Shown piece after piece: positions 1-10,526 of a stretch of DNA of 64,000 nucleotides. Source of the stretch: Eubacteriales bacterium (GTDB taxonomy: Bacteria; Bacillota; Clostridia; Oscillospirales; CAG-272); assembly GCA_045656605.1 (NCBI GenBank), contig JAZORO010000070.1, positions 731 to 64,730 of the forward strand, given 5' to 3'. Position 1 is the stretch's first letter. Every line of letters starts with the position of its first letter. Position numbers and translations under genes: made by a program. The notes beneath the pieces were generated by a model. It made no database searches, was not told the DNA's origin, and was given only the letters and a program-made list of their open reading frames with translations.

Positions 1-1
1 A

Positions 2-712
2 CTTGAAGTTAAAATAGAAGAGACGATTACAACTGAACAAGCACCTACGGTTCTATTGCAAGCGTTTCATTTGGCCTTTCCTAATGCTCTAATAAGTACA
101 TATTGCAAAAAAACAACAACTGATTATTATAAAACATTTTGGAAGCCCACAATTTTATTTTCTTATTATGGAGATACTGAATATGCTTGCGCCAAAAAAA
201 TCGAATTACAAATGGAAGATTTGGAACGCCTGAAAACATGGCATGAACTTTTAATTTCACATCATAAGGAGTGCAAAACCAATGCAAATCTTCATTGCTC
301 TACTTGGAATTATGCATTTAACGAATATCTTGATGCCGTATATTGTGGCATCGCAGAAAAAGAGTTCGCCCATTTGATTACTGCGTTAGAAGCTTTAGTG
401 GTAGACAGCACAACCGAATTGAATTTTAGAACTGCACTATATACTGCTACTCTTTATTCTGAAAATCCTGAAACAAGAGAATCTATATACAATTTAATTA
501 AAGACTGTTACAACTTGAGAAGCAAAAGCGTTCACGGCGATGTGAAAGATTTGAGGAAGAAATTTAAGAAGAAGGAAATCTACGATAGTCTGTTTGCCTT
601 GAAAAGAGTTGTTGCAGAGCTTCTTTTTAGGTTTTACGGCAAAGAAAAGAAAGATATTGTTTCCGTTATATTAAAATCTTTATTCAAAGCACCGAAAGCA
701 ACTATAATATGA
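2..712 (+). CDS. HEPN-like protein (Rx4H motif), 5' partial
   Basis: This frame has no stop codon back to the window edge, so the listed TTG at 56 is probably internal. The C-terminal part contains 'NLRSKSVHGD', which fits the HEPN Rx4-6H motif in an alpha-helical context. The region is AT-rich relative to the rest of the window. Confidence 0.4.
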   Translation, partial: LEVKIEETITTEQAPTVLLQAFHLAFPNALISTYCKKTTTDYYKTFWKPTILFSYYGDTEYACAKKIELQMEDLERLKTWHELLISHHKECKTNANLHCSTWNYAFNEYLDAVYCGIAEKEFAHLITALEALVVDSTTELNFRTALYTATLYSENPETRESIYNLIKDCYNLRSKSVHGDVKDLRKKFKKKEIYDSLFALKRVVAELLFRFYGKEKKDIVSVILKSLFKAPKATII

Positions 713-758
713 GTAAACAAAATCCATCAAGGATAATCTGTCCTCGATGGATTTTCTG

Positions 759-1019
759 TTATCTTAATGTTTCTATGGCAATCTGCATTCCTAATTTGAA
801 GGCATATTCGAAGATAGCTGCTTCTGCAAGGCTCATATACTCGTTCCAGCAATCGTGGAACTTCTCGAATATCTCCTTTTGTTTCTCTGTGAAGCTTTTC
901 TCCAAGTCCTCGTGATGCCTTGCCATGTAGCCGAGGAGTTCCTTCATCTCCGGCGAGTTCGTTCTGCTATCCTCTTGCGGTATGATATTTCCGTGCCATA
1001 GTTCTTTAATTACGTTCAT
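759..1019 (-). CDS. small hypothetical protein (mobile-element associated)
   Basis: The internal ATG giving MNVIKELWHGN... is preceded by GGAGGTATAACAAA, a good SD, so I trimmed the start from the listed 1067. The protein is charged and helical. I cannot assign a function. Confidence 0.5.
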   Translation of the reverse strand: MNVIKELWHGNIIPQEDSRTNSPEMKELLGYMARHHEDLEKSFTEKQKEIFEKFHDCWNEYMSLAEAAIFEYAFKLGMQIAIETLR

Positions 1020-1280
1020 TTTGTTATACCTCCGGTAGCACAACACAATACCACACAAATCTCGCAAAGTCCAGACTTTTGGAGAAATAAAATAGACTAT
1101 TTTTCATCGTCCATATTCTTTGTTTAGTGTTGACTAAATTTTGATCAGCGTAAGGAGCTTCTCTTTGTCTTAGGCATAGTAATTTTTCAAGGTTTAATGC
1201 AATATCGCAATGAGATGTACCCAGACGTGCACATCATGTCTAAAATGAGGGGTTTGGGAAAAATAAGTCGTTAAAAAGAC

Positions 1281-1309
1281 TTGAATATTGGAGAAGTTTA
1301 TGCTACAAT
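1281..1309 (+). promoter_or_regulatory. sigma-70 type promoter for the recombinase gene
   Basis: TTGAAT, a 17-nt spacer, then TACAAT with an upstream TGn (tgcTACAAT). It lies 33 nt upstream of the ATG at 1342. Confidence 0.5.
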
Positions 1310-1341
1310 CAAACCACTAAAATTTGAAAGGCGGTGAGTAT

Positions 1342-2919
1342 ATGACAGGTGTAATTTACGCTCGGTATTCCTCGGATAATCAGCGCGAGGAGTCGATTGA
1401 GGGGCAGATTCGTGAGAATACTGCTTTTGCCGAGAAGAACGGCATTGTTATCGTTGGGCACTACATAGATAGAGCCGTTTCTGCGAAAACGGACAATCGC
1501 CCCGAGTTTCAGCGTATGATACGTGACAGTGCTAAAAAGACATTTGACGTAGTCATAGTTTGGAAGCTTGACCGCTTTTCTCGTAACCGCTACGACAGTG
1601 CGAAATACAAGGCTGCCTTGAAGAAAAATAACGTTCGCGTTGTTTCGGCAACCGAGGCAATCTCGGAAGGTGCAGAGGGCATAATTCTTGAATCGGTGCT
1701 TGAAGGCATGGCGGAATATTATTCAGCCGACCTTGCGGAAAAGGTAACACGGGGGTTAACCGAGAATGCCTTAAAATGCCGTTTTAACGGTGGTAACGGT
1801 CTTCCTTACGGTTATACCGTTGACGAGGAGAAGCATTTTCAAATTGACCCCTTAAAAGCTCCCATAGTGGCTGAAATATTTGAGCGTTACGCTCACGGTG
1901 AATCTATTGCCGAGATAGTACATAGCCTGAACGCACGTGGACTCAAAACACAAAAGGGTAAAGCCTTTAATCACGGCACACTCAACCGAATGCTCGGTAA
2001 CAAATCCTATATGGGCGTGTATCACTACAACGGCATTGAAATTCCGGACGGTGTTCCTGCGATAGTGTTGGAAGATACCTTCAAGGTAGTCGAAAGGCGA
2101 ATGGCACAAAATAAGCACGCATCAGCCAAGAACAAGGCGGAAGAAAAGTACGTGCTTACAACCAAGCTTTTCTGCGGAAAGTGCCACACAATGATGGTCG
2201 GAGACTCCGCGCAAAAGAAAAACGGTAATATCTACCGCTACTACAAATGCGCCAGTGCAAAGAGGCACGAATGCGATAAAAAAGCCGTTCGCAAGGAATG
2301 GATTGAGAAGCTTGTACTGAACAAGGTTATCAAGGTCTTGTTTGATGACGAAGCACTTGATAAGATTGCTGACGAAATAGTCGCTCTGCTTGACGAGGAC
2401 AACAAGGTTATACCGCTTCTTGAGGCTCAACTCAAGGAAGTTCGCAAGTCTATCGACAACGTGATGAAGGCTATCGAGGCAGGAATTATCACTCGTTCAA
2501 CTAAGGCAAAGCTTGAGGAGCTTGAAGCCGAGGAAGAGCAAATCGAGCTTAATATTCTCAAAGAGCAGACAAGCACTCCCAAGCTCACGAAAGAACAAAT
2601 TTTATTTGCTTTGGACAAATTCCGTAAACTTGACTTAACAATCGAGGCAAATAAAGAGCGTTTGATTGACAGTCTTGTGAAATGTGTCTTACTTTATGAT
2701 GATAAGCTCGTTATAACCTTTAATTTCAAAAATGAGCCTGTAACTGTTCCCACAAGCGATGAGCTTCTAGCAATAGAAGGCAGTTCGGATATTGAAGCAT
2801 TTGCTTCACCAAAGCAATCCAATCCGAACTCAGATTGGGTTGCTTTTCTTTTTTGCGACTGTTGCGAGGAGTTTTGCTCGGCGACGCTATCGCAAAGAGC
2901 TCTGAGATACGCCGGATAG
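1342..2919 (+). CDS. large serine recombinase (resolvase/invertase N-domain plus recombinase and zinc-ribbon domains)
   Basis: The N-terminus 'VIYARYSSDNQREESIEGQ' carries the catalytic Ser motif, and 'VWKLDRFSRN' is present. There is a Cys cluster, CGKCHTMM...YYKCASAKRHEC, followed by a coiled-coil region. The start was set at the ATG after GGCGGTGAG. The C-terminal tail is atypical (see findings). Confidence 0.9.
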   Translation: MTGVIYARYSSDNQREESIEGQIRENTAFAEKNGIVIVGHYIDRAVSAKTDNRPEFQRMIRDSAKKTFDVVIVWKLDRFSRNRYDSAKYKAALKKNNVRVVSATEAISEGAEGIILESVLEGMAEYYSADLAEKVTRGLTENALKCRFNGGNGLPYGYTVDEEKHFQIDPLKAPIVAEIFERYAHGESIAEIVHSLNARGLKTQKGKAFNHGTLNRMLGNKSYMGVYHYNGIEIPDGVPAIVLEDTFKVVERRMAQNKHASAKNKAEEKYVLTTKLFCGKCHTMMVGDSAQKKNGNIYRYYKCASAKRHECDKKAVRKEWIEKLVLNKVIKVLFDDEALDKIADEIVALLDEDNKVIPLLEAQLKEVRKSIDNVMKAIEAGIITRSTKAKLEELEAEEEQIELNILKEQTSTPKLTKEQILFALDKFRKLDLTIEANKERLIDSLVKCVLLYDDKLVITFNFKNEPVTVPTSDELLAIEGSSDIEAFASPKQSNPNSDWVAFLFCDCCEEFCSATLSQRALRYAG

Positions 2920-2996
2920 ATGCAAGAGGCTTCGGAATATCCCCCCTTATCGGTGATGAGTAAAAAGGTATTTGGTCTGCTTTTATTAATTCTTTG

Positions 2997-3029
2997 TGCG
3001 CTTATCAGAAAAGCGCATTTTTCTTTTTT
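2997..3029 (+). terminator. rho-independent terminator after the recombinase
   Basis: The stem is TGCGCTT/AAGCGCA with a 7-nt loop, followed by TTTTTCTTTTTT. Confidence 0.6.
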
Positions 3030-3070: not shown

Positions 3071-3099
3071 TTTACAAAAGCATCTTTGTGTGCTATAAT
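3071..3099 (+). promoter_or_regulatory. strong sigma-70 promoter of the six-gene operon
   Basis: TTTACA (3071-3076), a 17-nt spacer, then TATAAT (3094-3099) with an extended -10 (tgcTATAAT). A GGGGGA RBS precedes the ATG at 3132. Confidence 0.65.
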
Positions 3100-3131: not shown

Positions 3132-4289
3132 ATGAACAACGGATGCAGAATAAAAGCGGAGCTGCTCTCGTACGGGGTGCGAATCTCCGACGAGGCAATA
3201 AAGCGCTTCTCCTACCCGTACCTTGTCAAAAGGCGAGCGTACAGCAACACGGACAGTGCCGACTTCTTCTCAATAGATGCGCCTCAAGAAATCATAATTC
3301 TACCTGAGAATATCATTGCGGGCGTAACTCTCAACCACACCTCTCCGTGGCGCATTGAGTACAGCGAAAACGGCTACTATCTGCAAAACTCAAGCACTCT
3401 CGAAAGGTGCGACATCACGTTTACGTTAAAGCCCGATTTCTACGGAATGAAGATATACGACGGTATCAATGCGGAGAACGTAATAACCTATATATTCGGG
3501 CATACGCTCGGCATTTTTGTTAACACGTCCTGCTACTTCGCAACGCCGGAGCGTCACTGTAGATACTGCTCCATACGCTCCAACGGAGCACGTCCAAAGG
3601 ACAACGTAAGAGTGCTCGACCGTGAGCTTATCGCATCTGCGGTGAAGCTGGCAATCGAAAATGACAACGGATTTGTAAGCAGCATATTCATAAGCGGGGG
3701 GAATTTCACGGGCTTTGACGAAAGCTTTTCACGGTATGCGGACATTGCTAAAGGCGTTATGGAAGCCGTGCGCAATTCAGGCAGGGATATCCGAGTTATG
3801 TTAAGTGTTTTCCCGCCCGAAAACAAGGAATTGATTGCTCTTTTATGCGACACGGGTCTTGACATCCTGTTAGGAACAGAGGCGTTCAGTCCCGAAGCAT
3901 ATTCACGCTTCTGCCCCGGGAAATCAAAGGTGCTCTCAAAGGAAAGGCTCAAGGACGTGCTTCGTTACGCAGTCGATATACTTGGCAAAGGGCACGTATA
4001 CAGCATAGTAATACACGGTCTTGAGGACGACGAGGCGGTGGTCGAGGGTGTCGAAGAATACGCAAAGATGGGCGTATGCACAATTGTAAACGTGTTGCAC
4101 CTTGATCCCGGCACGGAGATTATCGATATGGGTGTATCTATACCCTCCCCCGAGTCAATCCTCAGAGTCGCAGGCAAGGTCTCAAAGATATACAGTGAAT
4201 ACGGCTTTGACTCATCAGTCGCATACGGCGGAAGAAGCTCGTTCGATGCGGAGTGCTCTGTTCTTAGTCCGGAGGAATTTGAAAAATGA
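3132..4289 (+). CDS. radical-SAM-like enzyme, copy A1 (non-canonical CX8CX2C cluster motif)
   Basis: 'NTSCYFATPERHCRYCS' places Cys at residues 134, 143 and 146, with an aromatic residue before the last Cys. 'FISGGNFTG' is GGE-like. 'HGLEDDE...VNVLHLDPGTE' resembles the C-terminal half of BioB/ThiH-type radical SAM barrels. It is a paralog of the 5443-6603 protein. Confidence 0.6.
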   Translation: MNNGCRIKAELLSYGVRISDEAIKRFSYPYLVKRRAYSNTDSADFFSIDAPQEIIILPENIIAGVTLNHTSPWRIEYSENGYYLQNSSTLERCDITFTLKPDFYGMKIYDGINAENVITYIFGHTLGIFVNTSCYFATPERHCRYCSIRSNGARPKDNVRVLDRELIASAVKLAIENDNGFVSSIFISGGNFTGFDESFSRYADIAKGVMEAVRNSGRDIRVMLSVFPPENKELIALLCDTGLDILLGTEAFSPEAYSRFCPGKSKVLSKERLKDVLRYAVDILGKGHVYSIVIHGLEDDEAVVEGVEEYAKMGVCTIVNVLHLDPGTEIIDMGVSIPSPESILRVAGKVSKIYSEYGFDSSVAYGGRSSFDAECSVLSPEEFEK

Positions 4290-5407
4290 AAATGAACAAA
4301 AGGATTTATCTTTATATAATAACCGCACTCGTCCTGCCAAGCATATTCCAAGAGGCTCTGATACGCCTCGGAGCTGTCGACGAGGAGCGCAAATGGCTTA
4401 TATACCTGATTCTTACTGCGTCGATAATTGCCGTGGTTCTGCTCGCAGAGTTCGTTATGTGGATCGTATATCTGTGTAAGACCCCATCGGTAGAAACAAT
4501 GCTTGAGAGAATCGACAGAATCGGCGAAAAATACGTTCTCTTCGGAGAAACGAAGATGTTCAACGTGCCGAACTCCGAGTTCGATATGTTCTACGCAAAG
4601 AACGTAAAAAACACCGAGAGCATATTCCGCAACGCACGCCCGCACACCGTGTATCACAGCCTATCTGCCAAAAAGCATTTGAGCTGGGTAGAATTTATTT
4701 TCTGGGATTTTTTAAGAGATTTAAAGGAAGAGCTCGGCTTTAACGTTATGATAGCCTTCCACGAGGATGAAAAAGGACGTGAAAGCGGAGAAAACACGGG
4801 CTCCGAAAGATACAAGGAAATGTGCCGTGAGTTCGCTCAAATCGCAAGAAACCTCATCGGAAAAGACATTAAGATAATAAATGAAGAGGAGTACCTCAAG
4901 CGTCACCCGAGATTATACTGCGACTTTCACAAGGTGTACGTAGAGAAGCTGCTCGAAAGCGCCAAGCTTGTTGCAGAGGGCAAGAGCGACTACAAGGGAT
5001 TCTGCCGAGGACTATCGTTTGCCGAGTCGGTCTTCCCTCTCATTGCCGCCGCAAAGAAGCACGACAGAATCTACGCAATAGACAGAGAAACGGCATTCAA
5101 TATATGGAACTCTCCGCCCCTCGATACGATAAAGAAGGAAGAGAGCATATACTTTATTCTTGCAGAAACTCTGAAGGACCCGGATAACAACCCATTGCAG
5201 ATATTCACCGCAGACGGCACGCTGAATATAACCGACGACCCCGAAACAGTAAGGAAAAAGCTCTTGGGAATGCCGGAGATTACAAGGCAGATAATGTATA
5301 ATATTATCTCGACGAATACTCCTTACACTCCGTCTGTCGAAGGATTCGATGATGTCGATACGGTTTATGAGTGCATAATGTTTATAAAGAATAAATACGC
5401 TATTTAG
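4286..5407 (+). CDS. membrane-anchored protein, copy B1; cytoplasmic domain resembles the class-Ic aaRS (TrpRS/TyrRS) catalytic fold
   Basis: There are two N-terminal hydrophobic helices. Its ATG overlaps the A1 stop (ATGA) and a GGAGGAA SD lies 8 nt upstream. Segments parallel TrpRS motifs (see findings), but HIGH and KMSKS are degenerate. Confidence 0.4.
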   Translation: MKMNKRIYLYIITALVLPSIFQEALIRLGAVDEERKWLIYLILTASIIAVVLLAEFVMWIVYLCKTPSVETMLERIDRIGEKYVLFGETKMFNVPNSEFDMFYAKNVKNTESIFRNARPHTVYHSLSAKKHLSWVEFIFWDFLRDLKEELGFNVMIAFHEDEKGRESGENTGSERYKEMCREFAQIARNLIGKDIKIINEEEYLKRHPRLYCDFHKVYVEKLLESAKLVAEGKSDYKGFCRGLSFAESVFPLIAAAKKHDRIYAIDRETAFNIWNSPPLDTIKKEESIYFILAETLKDPDNNPLQIFTADGTLNITDDPETVRKKLLGMPEITRQIMYNIISTNTPYTPSVEGFDDVDTVYECIMFIKNKYAI

Positions 5408-5442
5408 TAAATAATTATTTACATATTAAAGGATTGAGCCAA

Positions 5443-6603
5443 ATGCATACAAGCAATATAAGGCTGAAGGCCGAGATATTATCAGAAGGAATTTCTTTCT
5501 CCGCACGTGCGCTTGAGAATCTGCCGAGCGACGTACTTGTAAAAAGGCGTGCATATGGAAACCCCGATGAAATAAACGGAACAGAGCTTTCACTTCCGCA
5601 GGAGCTTGTGCTTTTGCCGGAGGGGATAACGGTGGGAATAAGCGCCTCGCTCCTTGCCCCCTTCACTGTCGACTATACGGGGGAAAGGTTTGTCCTTCTG
5701 CGTAACGACGAGTTTAAATGCGAGATAGGCTTTACAAGGTCCCCCGAGTTCTACGGCGCAATATGCGACTCGGGCGAGAAAGTCGAAAACGTGCTCACGT
5801 ACGTATCAGGACATTACCTCGGAATATTCGTAAATACGGCGTGCTACTTTGCCTCCCCCGGAAGGCAGTGCAAGTACTGCTCTATTAGAGCGAACTCCCG
5901 CCGACCCGAAGCGAATCTAAAGAAGGTTACGAAGGAATCCGCAACAAGCGCCGTGAGGCGTGCCGTTGAGCTCTCACGAGATAAATTCGATTTAGTCTTC
6001 ATCAGCGGTGGAAACTTCACAAACAGGGATGAAAATTTTGTTTATTACAGAGACATCGCCTTATCTATAAGGAGCGAACTTAATACCATCGCACCCGAAA
6101 TCGAGGTGGTCTTAAACGTTTTCCCACCGGACAAGCTTGCGCTTATTGATACGCTTTGCGGCAGTGGAATCAACGTGCTTGTCAGCACTGAGGTGTTCTC
6201 TGAAGAGGGATACGCATATCATTGCCCCGGAAAATCCAAAATATTGCCTAAAAAAAGGCTATATACCGTGCTCAAAAGGTACGTAAAAGCACTCGGAAAG
6301 GGTCATGTTTACAGCATAGTAATCCAGGGTCTCGAAAGCACGGACAGTCTTATCGATGGCATATGGGACTATGCAGAAAGGGGAGTGTGCACCGTAGTAA
6401 ACGTATTGCATCTCGACCCTGACACCGAGCTTGCGAAGGAAGGGGCCAAGCGCCCCGACGCCGACGATATACTTAGAGTAGCCAAAGAGCTTGAGAAGGT
6501 ATATTCAAAGCACGGCTTTGATACAAGGCGTATTTACGGCGGAAGAAATTCTTTTGATGCCGAATGCTCTTTAGGACTTATAAGCAAGAAAGGAGATAAC
6601 TAA
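5443..6603 (+). CDS. radical-SAM-like enzyme, copy A2 (CX8CX2C)
   Basis: 'NTACYFASPGRQCKYCS' is present. With the ATG at 5443 the three Cys fall at residues 134, 143 and 146, the same as in A1. It aligns along its full length with A1 ('GKGHVYSIVI.GLE', 'GVCT.VNVLHLDP.TE', 'YGGR.SFDAECS'). Confidence 0.6.
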   Translation: MHTSNIRLKAEILSEGISFSARALENLPSDVLVKRRAYGNPDEINGTELSLPQELVLLPEGITVGISASLLAPFTVDYTGERFVLLRNDEFKCEIGFTRSPEFYGAICDSGEKVENVLTYVSGHYLGIFVNTACYFASPGRQCKYCSIRANSRRPEANLKKVTKESATSAVRRAVELSRDKFDLVFISGGNFTNRDENFVYYRDIALSIRSELNTIAPEIEVVLNVFPPDKLALIDTLCGSGINVLVSTEVFSEEGYAYHCPGKSKILPKKRLYTVLKRYVKALGKGHVYSIVIQGLESTDSLIDGIWDYAERGVCTVVNVLHLDPDTELAKEGAKRPDADDILRVAKELEKVYSKHGFDTRRIYGGRNSFDAECSLGLISKKGDN

Positions 6604-7712
6604 TGAATAAAAAGCTGTTGATATACGTGCTTATGACATTGATTGTTCCTACGCTTACGTCTGAGCTGCTCTCAACATTCTTTGAATTCAACTTTGGCTC
6701 GCCTATCGTTAACGTGCTGATACTGTCTCTGGCGATTATCTTGCTTATACTTATAGTTGAGCTAATCGTGTATTTCTTCCCAAGATTCACGGGTAAGAGC
6801 AAGGCTGCGATAAGCACAAAAATCAAAGAAATCTCCGCTCCGTATAAGCTCCCCTCGGGCAAGCCGTTCTATACCGAGGACTCAAGACTACTCGCCGCTC
6901 TTGCAAGCAAAGACAGCTATAAAAAGCTACCTCTCTTAAGCTACACCTTCTTCTTCGTTGTGATGGTACGGGAGTATTTCAGCTGGATAGAATTCGTCAA
7001 CCTCACACTGCTTGCAAAGCTCGGGCGTGAGCTCGATATTGAGGTAGTAATAATACTCGAAAGCAACGAAAGCTCGCTCGATTCATCCACCCACAGAGCA
7101 AGAGATGCGGCGAGATTCAAGGCGGAAGAGGAAACCTACAAGAGAATTATTACCTCTATATTCGGCGGTAAAGTAACGATAAGAAGCGACTCGTATTACC
7201 GCAAATCGGATTCAAAAAAATACGCTCTTGAATTCCATACGCTTTACGTAAAACGAGTTCTCGGATACGTAAGGGAGCTTGAAGAGGGGAAAATCGATTA
7301 CTCGGCGTTAAGACACAGATTTGCATATCTTGAAGCTATATTCCCCATTATATGTGCGGCAGACAAAAACAAGAGCAAGGAAGTACTCTTCATACTCGAC
7401 AGAGAGAGCTCGAAGGAAACTTGGTCGAGCGCACCTCTGAAGGACAAAATAGAAAAAACGGGAATATACTTTATAAATGCGGCTACGCTGGATGCCGACG
7501 AGAGCACGGGGAAGAATCCCGTTTCTATGCTCAACCTGCTCGCACCGCATATAAAAATCAAAGAACAGCTAAGCGTCCTCTCCGATAAATCGAAGCAAAC
7601 GATACTCTATCTGTTACGAGCGGCGACCGACGACTACGAGCAATACGACGAGAACAAAGACGTCGAGATAACGATGATAATCCAAAAAATCAAGGCAAAG
7701 TACAACATCTGA
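6603..7712 (+). CDS. membrane-anchored protein, copy B2 (divergent paralog of B1)
   Basis: There are two N-terminal TM helices. Its start overlaps the A2 stop (TAATG) and follows an AAGGAG SD. It shares blocks with B1: 'SW(V/I)EF', 'E..FP(L/I)I.AA.K', '(I/L)DRE' and the C-terminal 'IK.KY.I'. Confidence 0.4.
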   Translation: MNKKLLIYVLMTLIVPTLTSELLSTFFEFNFGSPIVNVLILSLAIILLILIVELIVYFFPRFTGKSKAAISTKIKEISAPYKLPSGKPFYTEDSRLLAALASKDSYKKLPLLSYTFFFVVMVREYFSWIEFVNLTLLAKLGRELDIEVVIILESNESSLDSSTHRARDAARFKAEEETYKRIITSIFGGKVTIRSDSYYRKSDSKKYALEFHTLYVKRVLGYVRELEEGKIDYSALRHRFAYLEAIFPIICAADKNKSKEVLFILDRESSKETWSSAPLKDKIEKTGIYFINAATLDADESTGKNPVSMLNLLAPHIKIKEQLSVLSDKSKQTILYLLRAATDDYEQYDENKDVEITMIIQKIKAKYNI

Positions 7713-7722
7713 GGGTCTTTCT

Positions 7723-8877
7723 ATGAATATTAAAATATCCTCATCCGTAAGAGGCGTAAAGCCTATATATATGGGGGATGATTGTTTTCCCATCATATTC
7801 TCAAACATCGGTATGTCAACCGAGTGCGACTCCTTCTCCCGAGAACTTAGCAAGGTACGCGCCGTCGTCGCCGGAGGCGCAGATGCGGTATCCGACCTGA
7901 CGCTCATCGGAGATATCGAGGACGAGCAAAAAAGAATGCTCGAGAGCGTAAGCGTGCCCTTCGCATCAGTGGCGGCGTATGAAGCGTTTTCAAAGGCAAG
8001 AGGCTCCGAGGGTAAAATCCGAGCCGAGGACTTCATAAGAGTATTCGAAAAGCAGGCAGAGCGCGGAGTTGATATAATAACTCTGCACGCCACCGTGTTT
8101 TCATCGGATAATGAAGAGTTGGGAAGGGGCAAAAGAATTATTCCCTGCACCAGCCGAGGCGGAGCTATGATGCTCGAGCTGATGCGTAAGGGGGGGTACG
8201 AAAATCCCTTCTATACATACTTCGACGACATCATTTCGGTATGTAAAAAATACGGCACGTGCATAAGCCTCGGCCCCACCTATCGCCCGGGCTCTGTCGT
8301 AGACGCAGAATTTTCGGACAACCCGCATTTTACCGAGCTGTACCGTATGGCGAAGCTGGCAAAAAAAGCGACGGACGCCGGTGTCGGCATTGCAGTCGAG
8401 GGGATAGGTCACGCTCCGCTCGACAAAATCCCCGACCTTGTAAAAGAGGCGAAAAGAATAACCGGCAACGTGCCATACCGTGTTCTTAACGTAGCGACAG
8501 ATATCGCTATCGGCTTCGACCACGTTTCTTCAGCGATAGGTAGCTCCGTCGCCGTACAGTACGGCGCTGACAGCATAACAGCGGTAACACGCTCGGAGCA
8601 CCTCGGTATACCGACCGAGGTAGACCTCGTTGAAGCGGTAAGGAGCGCAAAGGTTGCGGCGTATTGCGGATATTCGGCAAGAACGGGTATACGAAAACGT
8701 GACGAGGAGATGTCACGAGCGAGAGCAGAGCGAGGCTGTATAGGGTGCTCCGAGGCAGCGCTTTTCCCCGAGCTTGTGAGCGAATATATCGAAAAAAACG
8801 GTATAGAAAAAAAGGACGCTTCCTGCACTATGTGCGGAGATTGCTGTCCGTTCGTTATTCTAGGTAAGAAAGGATAA
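7723..8877 (+). CDS. ThiC-family radical SAM enzyme, short divergent paralog
   Basis: ThiC-like blocks are present: 'NIGMSTE', 'ITLHAT', 'TSRGGA', 'ENPFYTYFDDIISVCKKYG..ISLGPTYRPG', 'EGIGHAP', 'TDIAIGFDHVSSAIG' and 'VTRSEHLGIP'. The C-terminal Cys cluster is 'CTMCGDCC'. At 384 aa it is shorter than typical ThiC. Confidence 0.7.
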   Translation: MNIKISSSVRGVKPIYMGDDCFPIIFSNIGMSTECDSFSRELSKVRAVVAGGADAVSDLTLIGDIEDEQKRMLESVSVPFASVAAYEAFSKARGSEGKIRAEDFIRVFEKQAERGVDIITLHATVFSSDNEELGRGKRIIPCTSRGGAMMLELMRKGGYENPFYTYFDDIISVCKKYGTCISLGPTYRPGSVVDAEFSDNPHFTELYRMAKLAKKATDAGVGIAVEGIGHAPLDKIPDLVKEAKRITGNVPYRVLNVATDIAIGFDHVSSAIGSSVAVQYGADSITAVTRSEHLGIPTEVDLVEAVRSAKVAAYCGYSARTGIRKRDEEMSRARAERGCIGCSEAALFPELVSEYIEKNGIEKKDASCTMCGDCCPFVILGKKG

Positions 8878-8883
8878 TGGCGT

Positions 8884-9426
8884 ATGTCTGACAGTGTTAA
8901 AGAAGAAGTATGGGATCTTTACGACGCAAGAGGTGTGAAGACCGGACTCGTCGTATCGAGGAGCGATAGGATTCCCGAGGGGCTATACCACCCGGTTGTG
9001 CACGTATGCGTCTTCAACGAAAAGGGAGAAATGCTCATACAAAAGAGAAATGCAGACAAGGCTCTTGAGCCCGACAAGTGGGACGTATCGAGCGGCGGAG
9101 GAGGTATATGCGGTGAAGAAATATACGAATCTGCCGAAAGAGAGCTCAAGGAAGAGCTCGGGATAATTGCAGATTTATCTAACACGCCCCCGCACGTTAC
9201 TCTGTTTTTTGAAACAGGATTTGATACTTATTATATTATCAAGGTAGACTCTCACACCTTCTCTCCGAGTATTCAGAAAAAAGAGATACAGGCTGTAGAT
9301 TGGGTGACAGAGGATAAGATTCTCTCTATGATAGAAAGCGGCAGCTTTGCGTCCTTCAAAAAGAGCTTTATATCTATGCTCTTCGAGCTGAAGGAAACAA
9401 GAGGCTCTCTATCATATAACGTATAA
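8884..9426 (+). CDS. Nudix hydrolase
   Basis: The Nudix box is 'GGGGICGEEIYESAERELKEELGI' (GX5EX7REUXEEXGU). It starts 6 nt after the ThiC-like stop. Confidence 0.85.
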   Translation: MSDSVKEEVWDLYDARGVKTGLVVSRSDRIPEGLYHPVVHVCVFNEKGEMLIQKRNADKALEPDKWDVSSGGGGICGEEIYESAERELKEELGIIADLSNTPPHVTLFFETGFDTYYIIKVDSHTFSPSIQKKEIQAVDWVTEDKILSMIESGSFASFKKSFISMLFELKETRGSLSYNV

Positions 9427-9489: not shown

Positions 9490-10425
9490 TTAATACAAAT
9501 GCTCGTATATTCCGCCGGGAATGAACTCTCTTATGAGCGAGTTATCCGGTACACGGGACTCGTCTATCGGGTATATCTCCTTCATAGCCTCAAGGACTAT
9601 ACTTGCGTACGGATCCTTCTTTGCTAACGAGTCGTCGATAAGCGAGAGAGCTCTATCTCTCATTACTCCGGGCTCAAACGGGTGGAAGGTATTGAAAGCG
9701 AGGTCTGCAGTCTCCTTATATGGGTAGAGATAAACGTCCTCGGCGTTCAAAACGCCTCTCCACATCGAGAGAGTTCTCTCGGCGTCAGCGCCCCTATATA
9801 TACTGTCTCTCACCATACGCCTTACGAATCTCAGCTTCCTGCCGGAGAGAATCCTCTCTTCCCCCTTGTTTATATTCGTCGATACGCTGACGAAAAGACG
9901 CAGTATTCTATCCGTCGGTATGCCTGAATAGATTTTCGGATTCAAGGCGTGCAGACCCTCTATGATTACGCACCCGTCGGGCATTGCAGGATAGCTTCTT
10001 TCTTCAACACGCCTCCCCTCTTTAAAATCATAGCGAGGAAGTGTGAAGCTCTCGGAGTTCGCTATTTTCATAAGCGTATCCGAGATAAACGAGAGGTGCA
10101 AAGCCTCCGGACACTCGTAGTCAGGCGTTCCGTCCGAATGCATAGGGTACTCGGGCGAGCCGGAATCCTTATAGAAGTCGTCCAAAGATACGACCATAGC
10201 ATCCTCGCCCCTTGCAACTATTGCATCCTTCAACAGGTTTGCAGTAGTAGTCTTGCCCGAGCCGGACGGTCCCGCAAGCAGTATTATCTTTATTTTTTCG
10301 TGCCCCGTCACGTAGTCTGCAAGCCCACCTATCCTAAAGCGATAAGACTCCTCGGCATCCATAATCATACGGTCGGGGGCTTCTTTCGCCTCTTTGTTCA
10401 GTAAATCAACATCAATCTCAGCCAT
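9490..10425 (-). CDS. uridine kinase-family nucleoside kinase (P-loop)
   Basis: It has the Walker A motif 'LAGPSGSGKTT' and 'VIIEGLHALNP', and its length is typical for this family. The start was set at MAEIDV, which follows GGGAGGAG. Confidence 0.7.
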   Translation of the reverse strand: MAEIDVDLLNKEAKEAPDRMIMDAEESYRFRIGGLADYVTGHEKIKIILLAGPSGSGKTTTANLLKDAIVARGEDAMVVSLDDFYKDSGSPEYPMHSDGTPDYECPEALHLSFISDTLMKIANSESFTLPRYDFKEGRRVEERSYPAMPDGCVIIEGLHALNPKIYSGIPTDRILRLFVSVSTNINKGEERILSGRKLRFVRRMVRDSIYRGADAERTLSMWRGVLNAEDVYLYPYKETADLAFNTFHPFEPGVMRDRALSLIDDSLAKKDPYASIVLEAMKEIYPIDESRVPDNSLIREFIPGGIYEHLY

Positions 10426-10526
10426 AGCTCCTCCCACAATTTACAGAGAGCATAATCTTTATTCTGTCAGCTATATTTCGCTTCGCTGTACAAATATTAT
10501 ATGTACGAAAAAGGAAGGTGTGAGTG

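What the first reader, a model, noticed from the sequence alone, without database searches (positions are those of the whole stretch)
4286..5407. Membrane-anchored proteins whose soluble domain resembles a degenerate TrpRS/TyrRS (class Ic aaRS) catalytic core (B1; B2 at 6603-7712)
B1 has two N-terminal TM helices followed by segments that parallel TrpRS landmarks as I remember them. 'KKHLSWVEFIFWDFLRDLKEELGFNVMIAFHEDE' corresponds to the HIGH-loop...LQ...(I/V)xDxHA strand. 'REFAQIARNLIGKDIKIINEEE' corresponds to 'LAxYLAxGIDPxxxxxFxQSE'. 'FAESVFPLIAAAKKHDRIYAIDRE' corresponds to 'YPxLMAADILxYxxxxVPVGxDQ'. 'LNITDDPETVRKKL' corresponds to the 'IxLLDDxxxIxKKI' segment that follows KMSKS. Canonical HIGH and KMSKS signatures are absent; for example, 'FTADG' sits where KMSKS would be. 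This suggests an aaRS-like ligand-binding or alternative-chemistry protein rather than a synthetase. A membrane-tethered class-I aaRS paralog coupled to a radical SAM enzyme would be unusual. Known aaRS-paralog precedents include cyclodipeptide synthases (class Ic fold) and EpmA.
Basis: inference. Interest (0 to 1): 0.7.

Follow-up and report, generated by a model that had tools for sequence, protein, structure and literature searches.

The report
Membrane-anchored TyrRS/TrpRS-like pseudo-synthetases beside radical enzymes
Two neighbouring genes encode membrane-anchored proteins with the fold of tyrosyl/tryptophanyl-tRNA synthetases but without their catalytic signatures; they belong to a rare, undescribed family that nearly always sits beside a ThiC-like radical enzyme, a Nudix hydrolase and a nucleotide-type kinase.

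Summary

- **Structure.** B1 (4286-5407) and B2 (6603-7712) are paralogs, 26% identical (E 1e-24). Each has an N-terminal two-helix membrane hairpin and a cytoplasmic domain of about 300 residues.
- **Fold.** The AlphaFold models are confident (pLDDT 90.6 and 88.7). For both, all 50 best PDB matches are TyrRS or TrpRS (E down to 9e-8, probability 1.0).
- **Sequence.** A profile alignment to M. jannaschii TyrRS is collinear over 192 columns (score 31; shuffles 13.2 ± 2.0).
- **Catalytic motifs.** HIGH is replaced by (H/Y)-L-(S/N)-W, with Trp in 40 of 41 members. KMSKS is gone.
- **Family.** It is tiny (47 representatives among 1.84 billion proteins) and has no Pfam, NCBIfam or PADLOC model. I found no paper describing it.
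- **Partners.** The most constant neighbour is not the upstream variant radical SAM gene. It is a short ThiC-like enzyme directly downstream (9 independent loci), usually followed by a Nudix hydrolase and a P-loop kinase. Recombinase, integrase or relaxase genes are often nearby.

Best reading (inferred): B is a non-adenylating, membrane-tethered small-molecule binder that works with the radical enzymes. It could be a receptor/effector or a substrate-handling subunit. Function is untested. I rate it a new variant of the aaRS-paralog theme, interest about 0.65.

The parts
3071..3099 (+). Promoter-like site (TTTACA-17-TATAAT with an extended TG) just upstream of A1, preceded by a terminator-like hairpin at 2996-3018. 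Probable operon start.
   Evidence: 11 of 12 consensus matches; sequence read
3132..4289 (+). A1: variant radical SAM protein (NF045502) with a CX8CX2C cluster motif. Its stop codon overlaps the B1 start (ATGA).
   Evidence: (NF045502 E 2e-61)
4286..5407 (+). B1: membrane-anchored class Ic aaRS-fold protein, 373 aa.
4298..4480 (+). B1 N-terminal transmembrane hairpin (helices aa 5-27 and 33-65). Basic residues flank it on the N-terminal side and after TM2, which implies N-in/C-in topology and a cytoplasmic domain.
4670..4693 (+). B1 K129-E136 (KKHLSWVE), at the position of the HIGH loop. Family signature is K-x-(Y/H)-L-(N/S)-W-(I/V)-(D/E); Trp replaces the second His in 40 of 41 members.
4754..4774 (+). 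B1 A157-K163 (AFHEDEK), the end of strand beta2. It aligns with IQITDDEK of eukaryote-type TrpRS and LLADLHA of TyrRS. Position 162 is acidic in 36 of 41 members.
5024..5107 (+). B1 E247-W274: ESVFPLIAAAKK (aligns with the YPxxQxxD specificity helix), strand beta4 IYAIDR (D266 present in 32 of 41), and the invariant W274.
5198..5263 (+). B1 Q305-A309 at the KMSKS position (no Lys or Ser signature), followed by the conserved NITDDPETVRKKL motif shared with TyrRS/TrpRS.
5434..6603 (+). A2: second variant radical SAM protein, 47% identical to A1, CX8CX2C motif. Its stop codon overlaps the B2 start (TAATG).
6603..7712 (+). B2: paralog of B1, 369 aa. TM helices at aa 3-28 and 34-63 (nt 6609-6791) and a class Ic aaRS-fold domain. 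The HIGH position reads YFSW.
7723..8877 (+). ThiC-like radical enzyme of a short clade, 384 aa, with a C-terminal CTMCGDCC (CX2CX3C) motif. This is the most constant neighbour of the B family.
   Evidence: synteny
8884..9426 (+). Nudix hydrolase with an intact Nudix box (YfcD/IDI-like subgroup). A recurrent member of the module.
   Evidence: synteny
9490..10437 (-). Uridine-kinase/PRK-family P-loop kinase, convergent with the operon. It may correspond to the kinase found in the same strand of other loci; membership is uncertain.
   Evidence: kinases in other loci
1324..2919 (+). Large serine recombinase directly upstream, in a lower-GC stretch. Context only: the module may be cargo of a mobile element.

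Best explanation
**What is shown.**
- B1 and B2 are membrane-tethered pseudo-synthetases. A two-helix N-terminal hairpin anchors a domain of about 300 residues with the Rossmann/CP1 architecture of class Ic synthetases (TyrRS/TrpRS).
- The two ATP-activating signatures are replaced family-wide: HIGH by (H/Y)L(S/N)W, and KMSKS by non-basic residues.
- The C-terminal helical region is shortened (two predicted helices, about 47 residues after the shared NITD..I..K motif, against about 77 residues in M. jannaschii TyrRS).
- The genes sit in a tight operon: variant rSAM-B1-variant rSAM-B2-ThiC-like-Nudix.
- Across the family the constant neighbours are a ThiC-like radical enzyme, a Nudix hydrolase and a P-loop nucleoside/nucleotide-type kinase.

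**What is inferred.**
- The positive-inside pattern puts the domain on the cytoplasmic face of the membrane.
- B does not charge tRNA or make an aminoacyl-adenylate.
- It keeps the relic amino-acid/adenylate pocket as a binding site for a small amino-acid-like or nucleoside-like molecule. The pocket residues are K129, W134, D/E136, H159, an acidic residue at 162, E247/S248, D266 and W274.
- That molecule is made or used by the adjacent radical enzymes. Candidates are an AIR-derived heterocycle or nucleotide, SAM, or 5'-deoxyadenosine.
- B couples the ligand to the membrane, either as a receptor/effector or as a substrate-presenting subunit paired 1:1 with the enzyme encoded next to it. This would resemble HisZ, a dead HisRS paralog that serves HisG as a ligand-binding subunit.
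- The duplicated A-B pairs suggest heteromeric assemblies, in line with the obligate dimers formed by class Ic enzymes.
For: **Fold.**
- Confident models.
- Exclusively TyrRS/TrpRS among the top 50 PDB hits for both paralogs, and at the top of the viral library.
- Collinear profile alignment with z of about 9 against shuffles.
- Weak independent TrpRS hits.

**Loss of catalytic motifs.** Position 134 is Trp in 40 of 41 members, and there is no Lys/Ser pattern at 305-309.

**Conserved polar residues at pocket-equivalent positions.** K/R129 in 40 of 41, D/E136 in 41 of 41, acidic 162 in 36 of 41, D266 in 32 of 41, W274 in 41 of 41. These argue for a functional site rather than a decayed one.

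**Membrane anchor.** It is a family trait: 39 of 41 members have hydrophobic segments before W134.

**Functional linkage.**
- Start/stop overlaps A1/B1 and A2/B2, and gaps of 6-26 nt elsewhere in the operon.
- The same A-B-A-B-ThiC order recurs in L001 and L004 at 54-69% identity.
- B-ThiC-like adjacency is seen in 9 independent loci. Nudix is present in 8 and a kinase in 6.
Against: - No ligand, complex or activity has been tested.
- B1 and its close orthologs keep the first His of HIGH (H131), and conserved lysines (K129, K258, K325) could in principle support non-canonical nucleotide chemistry. Catalysis is therefore not excluded.
- Membrane tethering has no obvious rationale for a soluble-metabolite pathway.
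- The distant members (L006, L008, L016) have other neighbours (TrpF-like, amine oxidase, a canonical rSAM), so the ThiC link is not universal.
Confidence: 0.5

Rival explanations
1. Conflict-system reading. The module is a mobile anti-phage (or other conflict) system. The ThiC-like enzyme (with or without the variant rSAM) makes a modified nucleotide-like signal or toxin, and the kinase and Nudix build and destroy it. B is the 2TM effector whose aaRS-like domain senses that molecule and perturbs the membrane, as the TM-plus-sensor effectors of CBASS or Pycsar do. This is a specific sub-case of the best explanation, listed separately because it makes distinct predictions.
For: - A 2TM hairpin is universal in the family. 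There is a semi-conserved Pro in TM1 and an acidic residue in TM2, each in 23 of 41 members.
- The family is rare and patchy: 47 representatives in 1.84 billion proteins.
- Mobile-element genes lie next to the module: a serine recombinase (window), an integrase (L009), a relaxase (L014) and a HipA-like gene (L012).
- Accessory genes have a nucleotide theme: dNK/dTMP-kinase-like kinases, a kinase resembling the kinase domain of anti-phage dCTP deaminase, and Nudix.
- Weak SLATT/YLATT hits.
Against: - A, B and the ThiC-like protein have no PADLOC match.
- No relative was found in phage, plasmid or viral-contig collections.
- No known defence gene was identified nearby.
- In L005 the module follows secE-nusG.
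- The SLATT/YLATT E-values (about 0.04) are not significant.
- Co-duplication and translational coupling of A with B is not typical of signal-effector pairs.
Confidence: 0.25
2. Cyclodipeptide-synthase-like catalyst. B uses an aminoacyl-tRNA rather than ATP as its activated substrate, and transfers the aminoacyl group to a pathway intermediate or a lipid at the membrane.
For: - The precedent is the same: CDPSs are class Ic-fold proteins without HIGH, KMSKS or an anticodon-binding domain (established knowledge).
- A CDPS appears among the structural matches (BFVD rank 8, E 6.8e-3).
- B has a shortened C-terminal region.
- A gamma-glutamyl hydrolase (Peptidase C26) next to B in L005 hints at amino-acid-conjugated intermediates.
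Against: - TyrRS/TrpRS are far better structural matches than the CDPS: TMq about 0.5 against 0.32, and no CDPS appears in the top 50 PDB hits.
- There is no Pfam CDPS hit.
- The serines after strand beta1 (S125, S127), where CDPSs carry their catalytic Ser, are not conserved across the family (17 of 41 each).
Confidence: 0.1
3. Non-canonical ATP-dependent ligase. B still activates a carboxylate with ATP using a diverged site, as MshC or PanC-type HUP ligases do, and ligates it to a product of the radical enzymes.
For: - The HUP fold is retained.
- B1 orthologs retain H131.
- Conserved K129, K258, K325 and the GxDQ-like D266 are present.
Against: - The second His of HIGH is Trp in 40 of 41 members. 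The first is His in only 7 of 41.
- The KMSKS loop has no conserved Lys.
- No member reaches any aaRS or ligase family threshold.
Confidence: 0.1
4. Passive anchor. B is a decayed synthetase remnant that only tethers or stabilises the radical enzymes at the membrane, for example near an electron donor, and binds no ligand.
For: - The catalytic motifs are lost.
- The anchor is universal.
- B is tightly coupled to Fe-S enzymes that need reductive activation.
Against: Strong conservation of polar and aromatic residues exactly at the HIGH-loop and pocket-equivalent positions (W134, D/E136, acidic 162, D266, W274) is not expected for a mere tether.
Confidence: 0.05

Closest known systems
Archaeal/eukaryote-type tyrosyl- and tryptophanyl-tRNA synthetases (class Ic; e.g. 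2cya, 2cyb, 1j1u, 3hzr, 3foc)
   Same: - Overall fold of the soluble domain: five-stranded Rossmann core, CP1 helices, the loop at the KMSKS position and the following NITD..I..K motif.
- Collinear motif order.
- Similar domain size (about 300 residues).
   Different: - No HIGH and no KMSKS.
- Below all family thresholds.
- Shortened C-terminal helical region.
- An extra N-terminal 2TM hairpin and a juxtamembrane segment of about 55 residues.
- Encoded in an operon with radical enzymes, not as a housekeeping gene.
Cyclodipeptide synthases (AlbC, YvmC, Rv2275)
   Same: Class Ic-derived proteins that lost the ATP motifs and the anticodon-binding domain and were recruited to secondary metabolism.
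   Different: - CDPSs are soluble, smaller, and form their own sequence family.
- Structurally B is closer to true TyrRS/TrpRS than to CDPS.
- The CDPS catalytic Ser position is not conserved in B.
HisZ (catalytically dead HisRS paralog, regulatory subunit of HisG)
   Same: Functional analogy only. HisZ is an aaRS paralog that lacks aminoacylation activity and serves a metabolic enzyme as a ligand-binding subunit. It is mentioned as lacking aminoacylation activity in PMC5388404.
   Different: HisZ is class II, soluble, and has a known partner and ligand. There is no homology to B.
LysX / MprF-type membrane-linked aaRS systems
   Same: An aaRS-type domain physically tied to the membrane.
   Different: LysX is an active class II LysRS fused to a multi-pass lipid-modifying domain. 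B is class Ic-like, lacks the catalytic motifs and has only a 2TM hairpin.
ThiC / BzaF radical SAM superfamily (for the partner gene)
   Same: - The partner at 7723-8877 matches PF01964 over its full length (E 6e-96).
- It keeps the GH and EH motifs that align with the corresponding motifs of plant ThiC.
   Different: - Short (379-394 aa).
- Below the NCBIfam ThiC and BzaB cut-offs.
- Cluster motif is CX2CX3C instead of CX2CX4C.
- Always paired with a B-family protein.

Membership tests
Class Ic aminoacyl-tRNA synthetases (TyrRS/TrpRS) | Rossmann-type catalytic domain with CP1 insertion, structurally closest to TyrRS/TrpRS | tested here: met
   Models have pLDDT 90.6 and 88.7. The top 50 PDB matches are all TyrRS/TrpRS at probability 1.0, with E down to 8.9e-8 and TMt 0.5-0.63. 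BFVD top 5 are likewise TyrRS/TrpRS.
Class Ic aminoacyl-tRNA synthetases (TyrRS/TrpRS) | HIGH signature (HxGH) after strand beta1 | tested here: not met
   The aligned position reads H131-L-S-W134 in B1 and YFSW in B2. The family has Y/H-L-N/S-W, with Trp in 40 of 41 members and the first His in 7 of 41.
Class Ic aminoacyl-tRNA synthetases (TyrRS/TrpRS) | KMSKS loop signature | tested here: not met
   The aligned position is Q305-I-F-T-A309. No Lys or Ser is conserved in columns 305-309 across 41 members.
Class Ic aminoacyl-tRNA synthetases (TyrRS/TrpRS) | Reaches the curated sequence-family thresholds (Pfam tRNA-synt_1b, NCBIfam trpS/tyrS) | tested here: not met
   No Pfam hit for any of the 41 members. 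NCBIfam TrpRS hits reach only E 0.09 and 0.0017, far below the cut-offs. A full HMMER profile search of 1.84 billion proteins listed 47 proteins at E of 0.001 or better, far fewer than a profile that recognised bona fide synthetases would return.
Class Ic aminoacyl-tRNA synthetases (TyrRS/TrpRS) | C-terminal anticodon-binding domain | tested here: inconclusive
   Only about 47 residues (two predicted helices) follow the NITD..I..K motif in B1, against about 77 in M. jannaschii TyrRS. No coordinates were available to compare the domains directly.
Class Ic aminoacyl-tRNA synthetases (TyrRS/TrpRS) | Amino acid activation and tRNA charging | not testable with these tools
   Needs ATP-PPi exchange and aminoacylation assays.
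Cyclodipeptide synthases | Class Ic-like fold without HIGH or KMSKS | tested here: met
   As in the rows above.
Cyclodipeptide synthases | Sequence or structural membership in the CDPS family | tested here: not met
   No Pfam CDPS hit. The only CDPS match is BFVD rank 8, E 6.8e-3, TMq 0.32. None appears in the top 50 PDB hits.
Cyclodipeptide synthases | Use of aminoacyl-tRNA substrates through a conserved Ser after strand beta1 | tested here: inconclusive
   S125 and S127 are each present in only 17 of 41 members. The activity cannot be tested here.
2TM membrane effectors of conflict systems (e.g. SLATT-type) | N-terminal two-helix membrane hairpin fused to a ligand-sensing domain | tested here: met
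   Hairpin present in 39 of 41 members.
2TM membrane effectors of conflict systems (e.g. SLATT-type) | Significant match to a known effector or defence family | tested here: not met
   PADLOC gives nothing for A, B or the ThiC-like protein. SLATT_1 and YLATT hits have E of about 0.04-0.05 in 2 of 41 members.
2TM membrane effectors of conflict systems (e.g. SLATT-type) | Location in defence islands or mobile elements | tested here: inconclusive
   A recombinase, integrase, relaxase or HipA-like gene lies next to 4 loci. No known defence genes were seen, and L005 lies after secE-nusG.
ThiC/BzaF superfamily (partner gene 7723-8877) | Full-length PF01964 match and the CX2CX4C cluster motif at equivalog score | tested here: inconclusive
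   PF01964 E 6e-96. NCBIfam ThiC scores 322 bits against a cut-off of 410, and BzaB 254 against 700. The motif is CX2CX3C in all 8 loci examined.

The most novel reading that the evidence does not exclude
The B family is the membrane effector/receptor of a previously unrecognised, mobile conflict or signalling system. A third functional clade of ThiC-like radical enzymes converts a ribotide or nucleotide into a new small molecule. A kinase and a Nudix hydrolase tune its level. A relic aminoacyl-adenylate pocket in a TyrRS/TrpRS-derived domain reads it out at the membrane.
Probability: 0.2. Interest if true: 0.85.

Novelty: new variant of a known kind. Interest (0 to 1): 0.65.

Why it matters
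**New branch of aaRS paralogs.** Catalytically repurposed aaRS paralogs (CDPS, HisZ, GluQRS, MshC) have each opened a piece of new biochemistry. This family adds a membrane-tethered class Ic derivative with its own conserved site, K..LNW(I/V)(D/E).

**A possible third ThiC-type chemistry.** The family is genetically locked to a distinct clade of ThiC-like enzymes. To my knowledge (not checked here) the ThiC/BzaF superfamily has only two characterised reaction types, so a third clade with a dedicated partner suggests new radical chemistry on a nucleotide-like substrate.

**Directly testable.** The kinase, the Nudix hydrolase and the mobile-element neighbours make it a candidate nucleotide-based conflict or signalling module. 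The operon is small (four to six genes) and the soluble domain is predicted with high confidence.

Tried and rejected
**Searches that found nothing useful.**
- Single-sequence PDB searches with B1 and B2 gave only noise: rotavirus VP8* at E 0.03 over 48 residues, and designed helical repeats.
- The best PDB profile hit, MJ0480 (E 0.006), covers the TM and juxtamembrane region. I took it as compositional. The Rab22 hit (45 residues) was also dismissed.
- Pfam gave no family for any of the 41 members.
- Rfam found no riboswitch (THI-box, cobalamin or other) in the window or in four related loci. This removes an easy link to thiamin or B12.
- PADLOC gave no hit for the core genes. The Nudix hit to PDC-S07 and the kinase hit to a dCTPase kinase domain are generic.
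- Phage, plasmid and viral-contig collections hold no relative.
- Genome and metagenome scans returned one locus each. One alignment was too diverse to scan with.
- The third word-indexed homolog search, using the profile, added almost nothing.
- Eight literature searches found no description of the family or operon. The 'ThiC' hit in PMC7159879 was the word 'thickness'.

**Things I could not do.**
Its closest structural relatives remain unknown.

**Ideas considered and dropped.**
- The Nudix is not an isopentenyl-diphosphate isomerase. My comparison with the E. coli IDI sequence, recalled from memory, puts Gly/Ser at the catalytic Cys position, and the Nudix box is intact (sequence).
- The 47-aa E. 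coli 'unknown protein' that represents A1's cluster is a clustering artefact.


Full report
**1. What is at the coordinates**

The + strand between 3.1 and 9.4 kb carries six tightly packed genes:

| Gene | Coordinates | Identity |
|---|---|---|
| A1 | 3132-4289 | radical SAM |
| B1 | 4286-5407 | 373 aa |
| A2 | 5434-6603 | radical SAM |
| B2 | 6603-7712 | 369 aa |
| ThiC-like | 7723-8877 | PF01964 |
| Nudix | 8884-9426 | Nudix hydrolase |

- A promoter-like site (3071-3099, 11 of 12 consensus matches with an extended TG) follows a terminator-like hairpin (2996-3018) just upstream of A1.
- A1's stop overlaps B1's start (ATGA) and A2's stop overlaps B2's start (TAATG). The other gaps are 6-26 nt.
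- A large serine recombinase (1324-2919) lies immediately upstream, in a stretch of lower G+C.
- A1 and A2 are 47% identical. B1 and B2 are 26% identical (E 1e-24).

**2. Checking the observation**

*Membrane helices.* Hydropathy finds two N-terminal hydrophobic segments in each B protein. The structure models show them as a helical hairpin: B1 5-27 and 33-65, B2 3-28 and 34-63. Basic residues lie before TM1 and cluster after TM2 (K/R at position 65 in 29 of 41 members). This predicts N-in/C-in topology, so the large domain is cytoplasmic, next to its Fe-S partners.

hhalign of the 41-sequence family alignment (A3) against it aligned B1 109-333 with TyrRS 20-229 over 192 columns:

| TyrRS | B1 |
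|---|---|
| HLGH | H131-L-S-(W134) |
| IILLADLHA | VMIAFHEDE |
| YPIMQVND | FPLIAAAK |
| KMSSS | Q305-IFTA309 |
| AVDDSPEEIRAKI | NITDDPETVRKKL |

- The score of 31.0 compares with 13.2 ± 2.0 (maximum 18.4) for 50 shuffles and 9.7 for the reversed sequence.
- A family HMM run against PDB sequences independently found Giardia TrpRS 3foc. It matched two collinear stretches at the IQITDDEK strand and at KMSAS...LTD..IKNKI (E 0.061).
- NCBIfam gave weak TrpRS hits for B1 (E 0.09) and one other member (E 0.0017).
- On sequence alone the signal is borderline but consistent and in the right order.

**3. The decisive test: fold**

- A full HMMER profile search of 1.84 billion representative proteins found only 47 relatives. 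These gave a 41-sequence alignment (A3).
- With it, AlphaFold2 gave a confident B1 model (pLDDT 90.6, pTM 0.87). It has five parallel strands (121-126, 153-158, 196-199, 262-267, 288-293) separated by helices, including two long CP1-like helices at 208-230 and 236-258.
- Foldseek against the PDB returned TyrRS or TrpRS in all 50 listed matches. The best was 2cya (E 8.9e-8, probability 1.0, TM 0.52/0.58), and 169 hits had E of 1e-3 or better.
- B2 was modelled separately (pLDDT 88.7) and gave the same picture. The best match was 2cyb_B (E 3.6e-6), again with all 50 being TyrRS/TrpRS.
- Against predicted viral structures, the first five matches are giant-virus TyrRS/TrpRS (TMq about 0.5). ArgRS, GluRS, a cyclodipeptide synthase and cytidylyltransferases follow at E of about 4e-3 or worse, with TMq of 0.34 or less.
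- The match is therefore specific to class Ic, not just to the HUP superfamily.

**4. What is kept and what is lost**

Column statistics over the 41 members show the following.

*Lost:*
- At the HIGH position the family reads (Y/H)-L-(N/S)-W. The fourth residue is Trp in 40 of 41 and the first is His in only 7 of 41.
- The KMSKS-equivalent columns (305-309) have no conserved Lys or Ser.

*Conserved around the relic active site:*
- K/R129 (40 of 41), W134, and D/E136 (41 of 41).
- H159 (29 of 41) and an acidic residue at 162 (36 of 41).
- E247 and S248, with F250-P251 (the 'YP' of the specificity helix).
- D266 at the end of beta4 (32 of 41), which by position corresponds to the Asp of GxDQ.
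- The invariant W274, plus T295, G301 and the N-I-T-D...I..K motif (D317 and K325, each in 32 of 41).

*Annotation from my own knowledge, not tested here:* position 162 aligns with the Glu of TDDEK, which I recall contacts the substrate alpha-ammonium group in eukaryote-type TrpRS. The GxDQ Asp contacts the ATP ribose.

*Shortened C-terminus:* only about 47 residues (two helices) follow the NITD motif, against about 77 in M. jannaschii TyrRS. The anticodon-binding region is therefore reduced.

*Anchor as a family trait:* 39 of 41 members have hydrophobic segments before W134. The two exceptions are an N-terminally truncated sequence and one outlier. Pro18 in TM1 and an acidic residue in TM2 each occur in 23 of 41.

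**5. Family and genomic company**

No Pfam, NCBIfam or PADLOC model covers the family. Close relatives of B1 and B2 number three each. I examined 13 further loci.

| Locus | Gene order |
|---|---|
| L001, L004 | A-B-A-B-ThiC (54-69% identity to the window); L001 adds Nudix and an upstream AAA_17 kinase |
| L003 (Bacillota MAG) | A-B-ThiC-kinase |
| L014 | relaxase, A-B-ThiC-Nudix-HTH-kinase |
| L009/L010 | integrase fragment, B-ThiC-Nudix-dNK |
| L012/L013 | B-ThiC-Nudix-kinase |
| L015 | B-ThiC-Nudix |
| L005 | secE-nusG-C26 hydrolase-B-ThiC-Nudix |
| L011 | DUF362-B-Nudix |
| L016 (distant member) | kinase-B-canonical rSAM |
| L008 (distant member) | amine oxidase next to B |
| L006 (distant member) | TrpF-like gene next to B |

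- The constant core is B + ThiC-like enzyme + Nudix + P-loop kinase.
- The CX8CX2C variant rSAM (NF045502) is an addition in the subclade that includes this window.
- The ThiC-like partner forms its own short clade (379-394 aa). Its motif is CxMCGxxCP (CX2CX3C) rather than CX2CX4C, and it scores below the NCBIfam ThiC and BzaB cut-offs.
- No riboswitch precedes any of these operons.
- No relatives occur in the phage, plasmid or viral collections searched.

**6. How it most likely works**

*Shown:* the fold, the loss of motifs, the anchor, and the conserved synteny with translational coupling.

*Inferred:*
- B does not activate amino acids. The two signatures that stabilise the ATP transition state in class I enzymes are replaced in every member.
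- The site is under selection, so it most likely binds something.
- A relic aminoacyl-adenylate pocket suits an amino-acid-plus-nucleoside-shaped ligand. Given the neighbours, candidates are the product or substrate of the ThiC-like enzyme (an AIR-derived heterocycle or nucleotide), SAM, or 5'-deoxyadenosine.
- The universal hairpin says that the membrane location is part of the function.

I therefore favour a non-catalytic, membrane-tethered binder that works with the radical enzymes (confidence about 0.5). HisZ-HisG is the closest functional analogy.

*Two versions remain open:*
- A substrate-presenting or complex-forming subunit. Supporting this, each A gene is translationally coupled to and co-duplicated with its own B, and class Ic enzymes are obligate dimers, so B1/B2 heterodimers are plausible.
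- A sensor-effector of a mobile conflict system. Supporting this are the 2TM hairpin, the rarity of the family, the recombinase/integrase/relaxase neighbours and the kinase-plus-Nudix nucleotide theme. Against it, nothing in PADLOC matches.

*Catalytic rivals are less likely but not excluded:* a CDPS-like aa-tRNA-dependent transferase, or a non-canonical ATP-dependent ligase.

**7. Comparison with what is known, and novelty**

- B works from the same scaffold as TyrRS/TrpRS but fails three of their defining tests: HIGH, KMSKS and the family thresholds. It should not be filed as a synthetase.
- It resembles CDPSs in evolutionary logic, but it is not a CDPS by sequence or by structural rank.
- Membrane-linked aaRS systems are known (LysX/MprF). 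Those are active class II enzymes fused to lipid-modifying domains.
- Eight literature searches found no description of this family, of its pairing with ThiC-like enzymes, or of the operon. A survey of prokaryotic aaRS paralogs has no occurrence of 'transmembrane' or 'cyclodipeptide' in its text (PMC5388404).
- I rate it a new variant of a known kind (aaRS-derived pseudo-enzymes), in a new gene context.

**8. Verdict**

- Observation: confirmed.
- Interpretation: supported at the fold level.
- Function: unknown and only inferred.
- Interest: 0.65. A specialist in aaRS evolution or radical SAM enzymology would find the membrane tether, the conserved replacement site and the exclusive link to a distinct ThiC clade surprising. 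The system is small enough to test directly.

Noticed in passing
window 7723-8877 (also L001 6877-8061, L003 9162-10310, L005 3348-4517, L009 9182-10333, L012 2913-4070, L014 3799-4944, L015 1447-2586): The ThiC-like partner forms a short clade (379-394 aa). It has a C-terminal CxMCGxxCP (CX2CX3C) motif instead of ThiC's CX2CX4C, and it scores below the NCBIfam ThiC and BzaB cut-offs. It may represent a third reaction type in the ThiC/BzaF superfamily.
   Followed up: partly
window 3132-4289 and 5434-6603: The two radical SAM proteins (NF045502 'variant_rSAM', distantly related to the MSMEG_0568 family) carry CX8CX2C instead of the canonical CX3CX2C. A further invariant Cys sits in a CPGKS motif. 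Their structure could not be predicted because the homologs from fetched loci were not admissible.
   Followed up: partly
window 1-2919: The first 2 kb are 39.6% G+C, against 44-52% in the rest of the window. They hold an unassigned 218-aa ORF (56-712), a DUF6809 ORF (759-1067, - strand) and a large serine recombinase (1324-2919). This is probably the edge of an integrated mobile element carrying the operon.
   Followed up: partly
B family TM region (B1 aa 18 and 55; window 4337-4339 and 4448-4450): There is a semi-conserved Pro in TM1 and an acidic residue (E or D) in the cytoplasmic third of TM2, each in 23 of 41 members. Two members give weak SLATT_1 or YLATT hits (E about 0.04-0.05). None of this is significant, but it is compatible with a functional hairpin rather than a purely passive one.
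   Followed up: partly
L005 1325-1930; L008 315-1571; L006 1-555; L011 63-1136: Some family members have other neighbours: a Peptidase C26 gamma-glutamyl hydrolase, a flavin amine-oxidase-family protein, a TrpF-like isomerase, and a DUF362 protein whose stop overlaps the B start. These hint at amino-acid-conjugated or phosphoribosyl-amine chemistry in variants of the module.
   Followed up: no
window 9490-10437 (- strand): A uridine-kinase/PRK-family P-loop kinase is convergent with the operon. Other loci carry a nucleoside/nucleotide-type kinase in the operon itself, so this gene may be the functional counterpart.
   Followed up: no
protein cluster look-up (not in the window): A1's 90% identity cluster is represented by a 47-aa E. 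coli 'unknown protein' (Q56377 / AAA88667.1). It has no detectable similarity to the window, so this is a database clustering artefact.
   Followed up: yes
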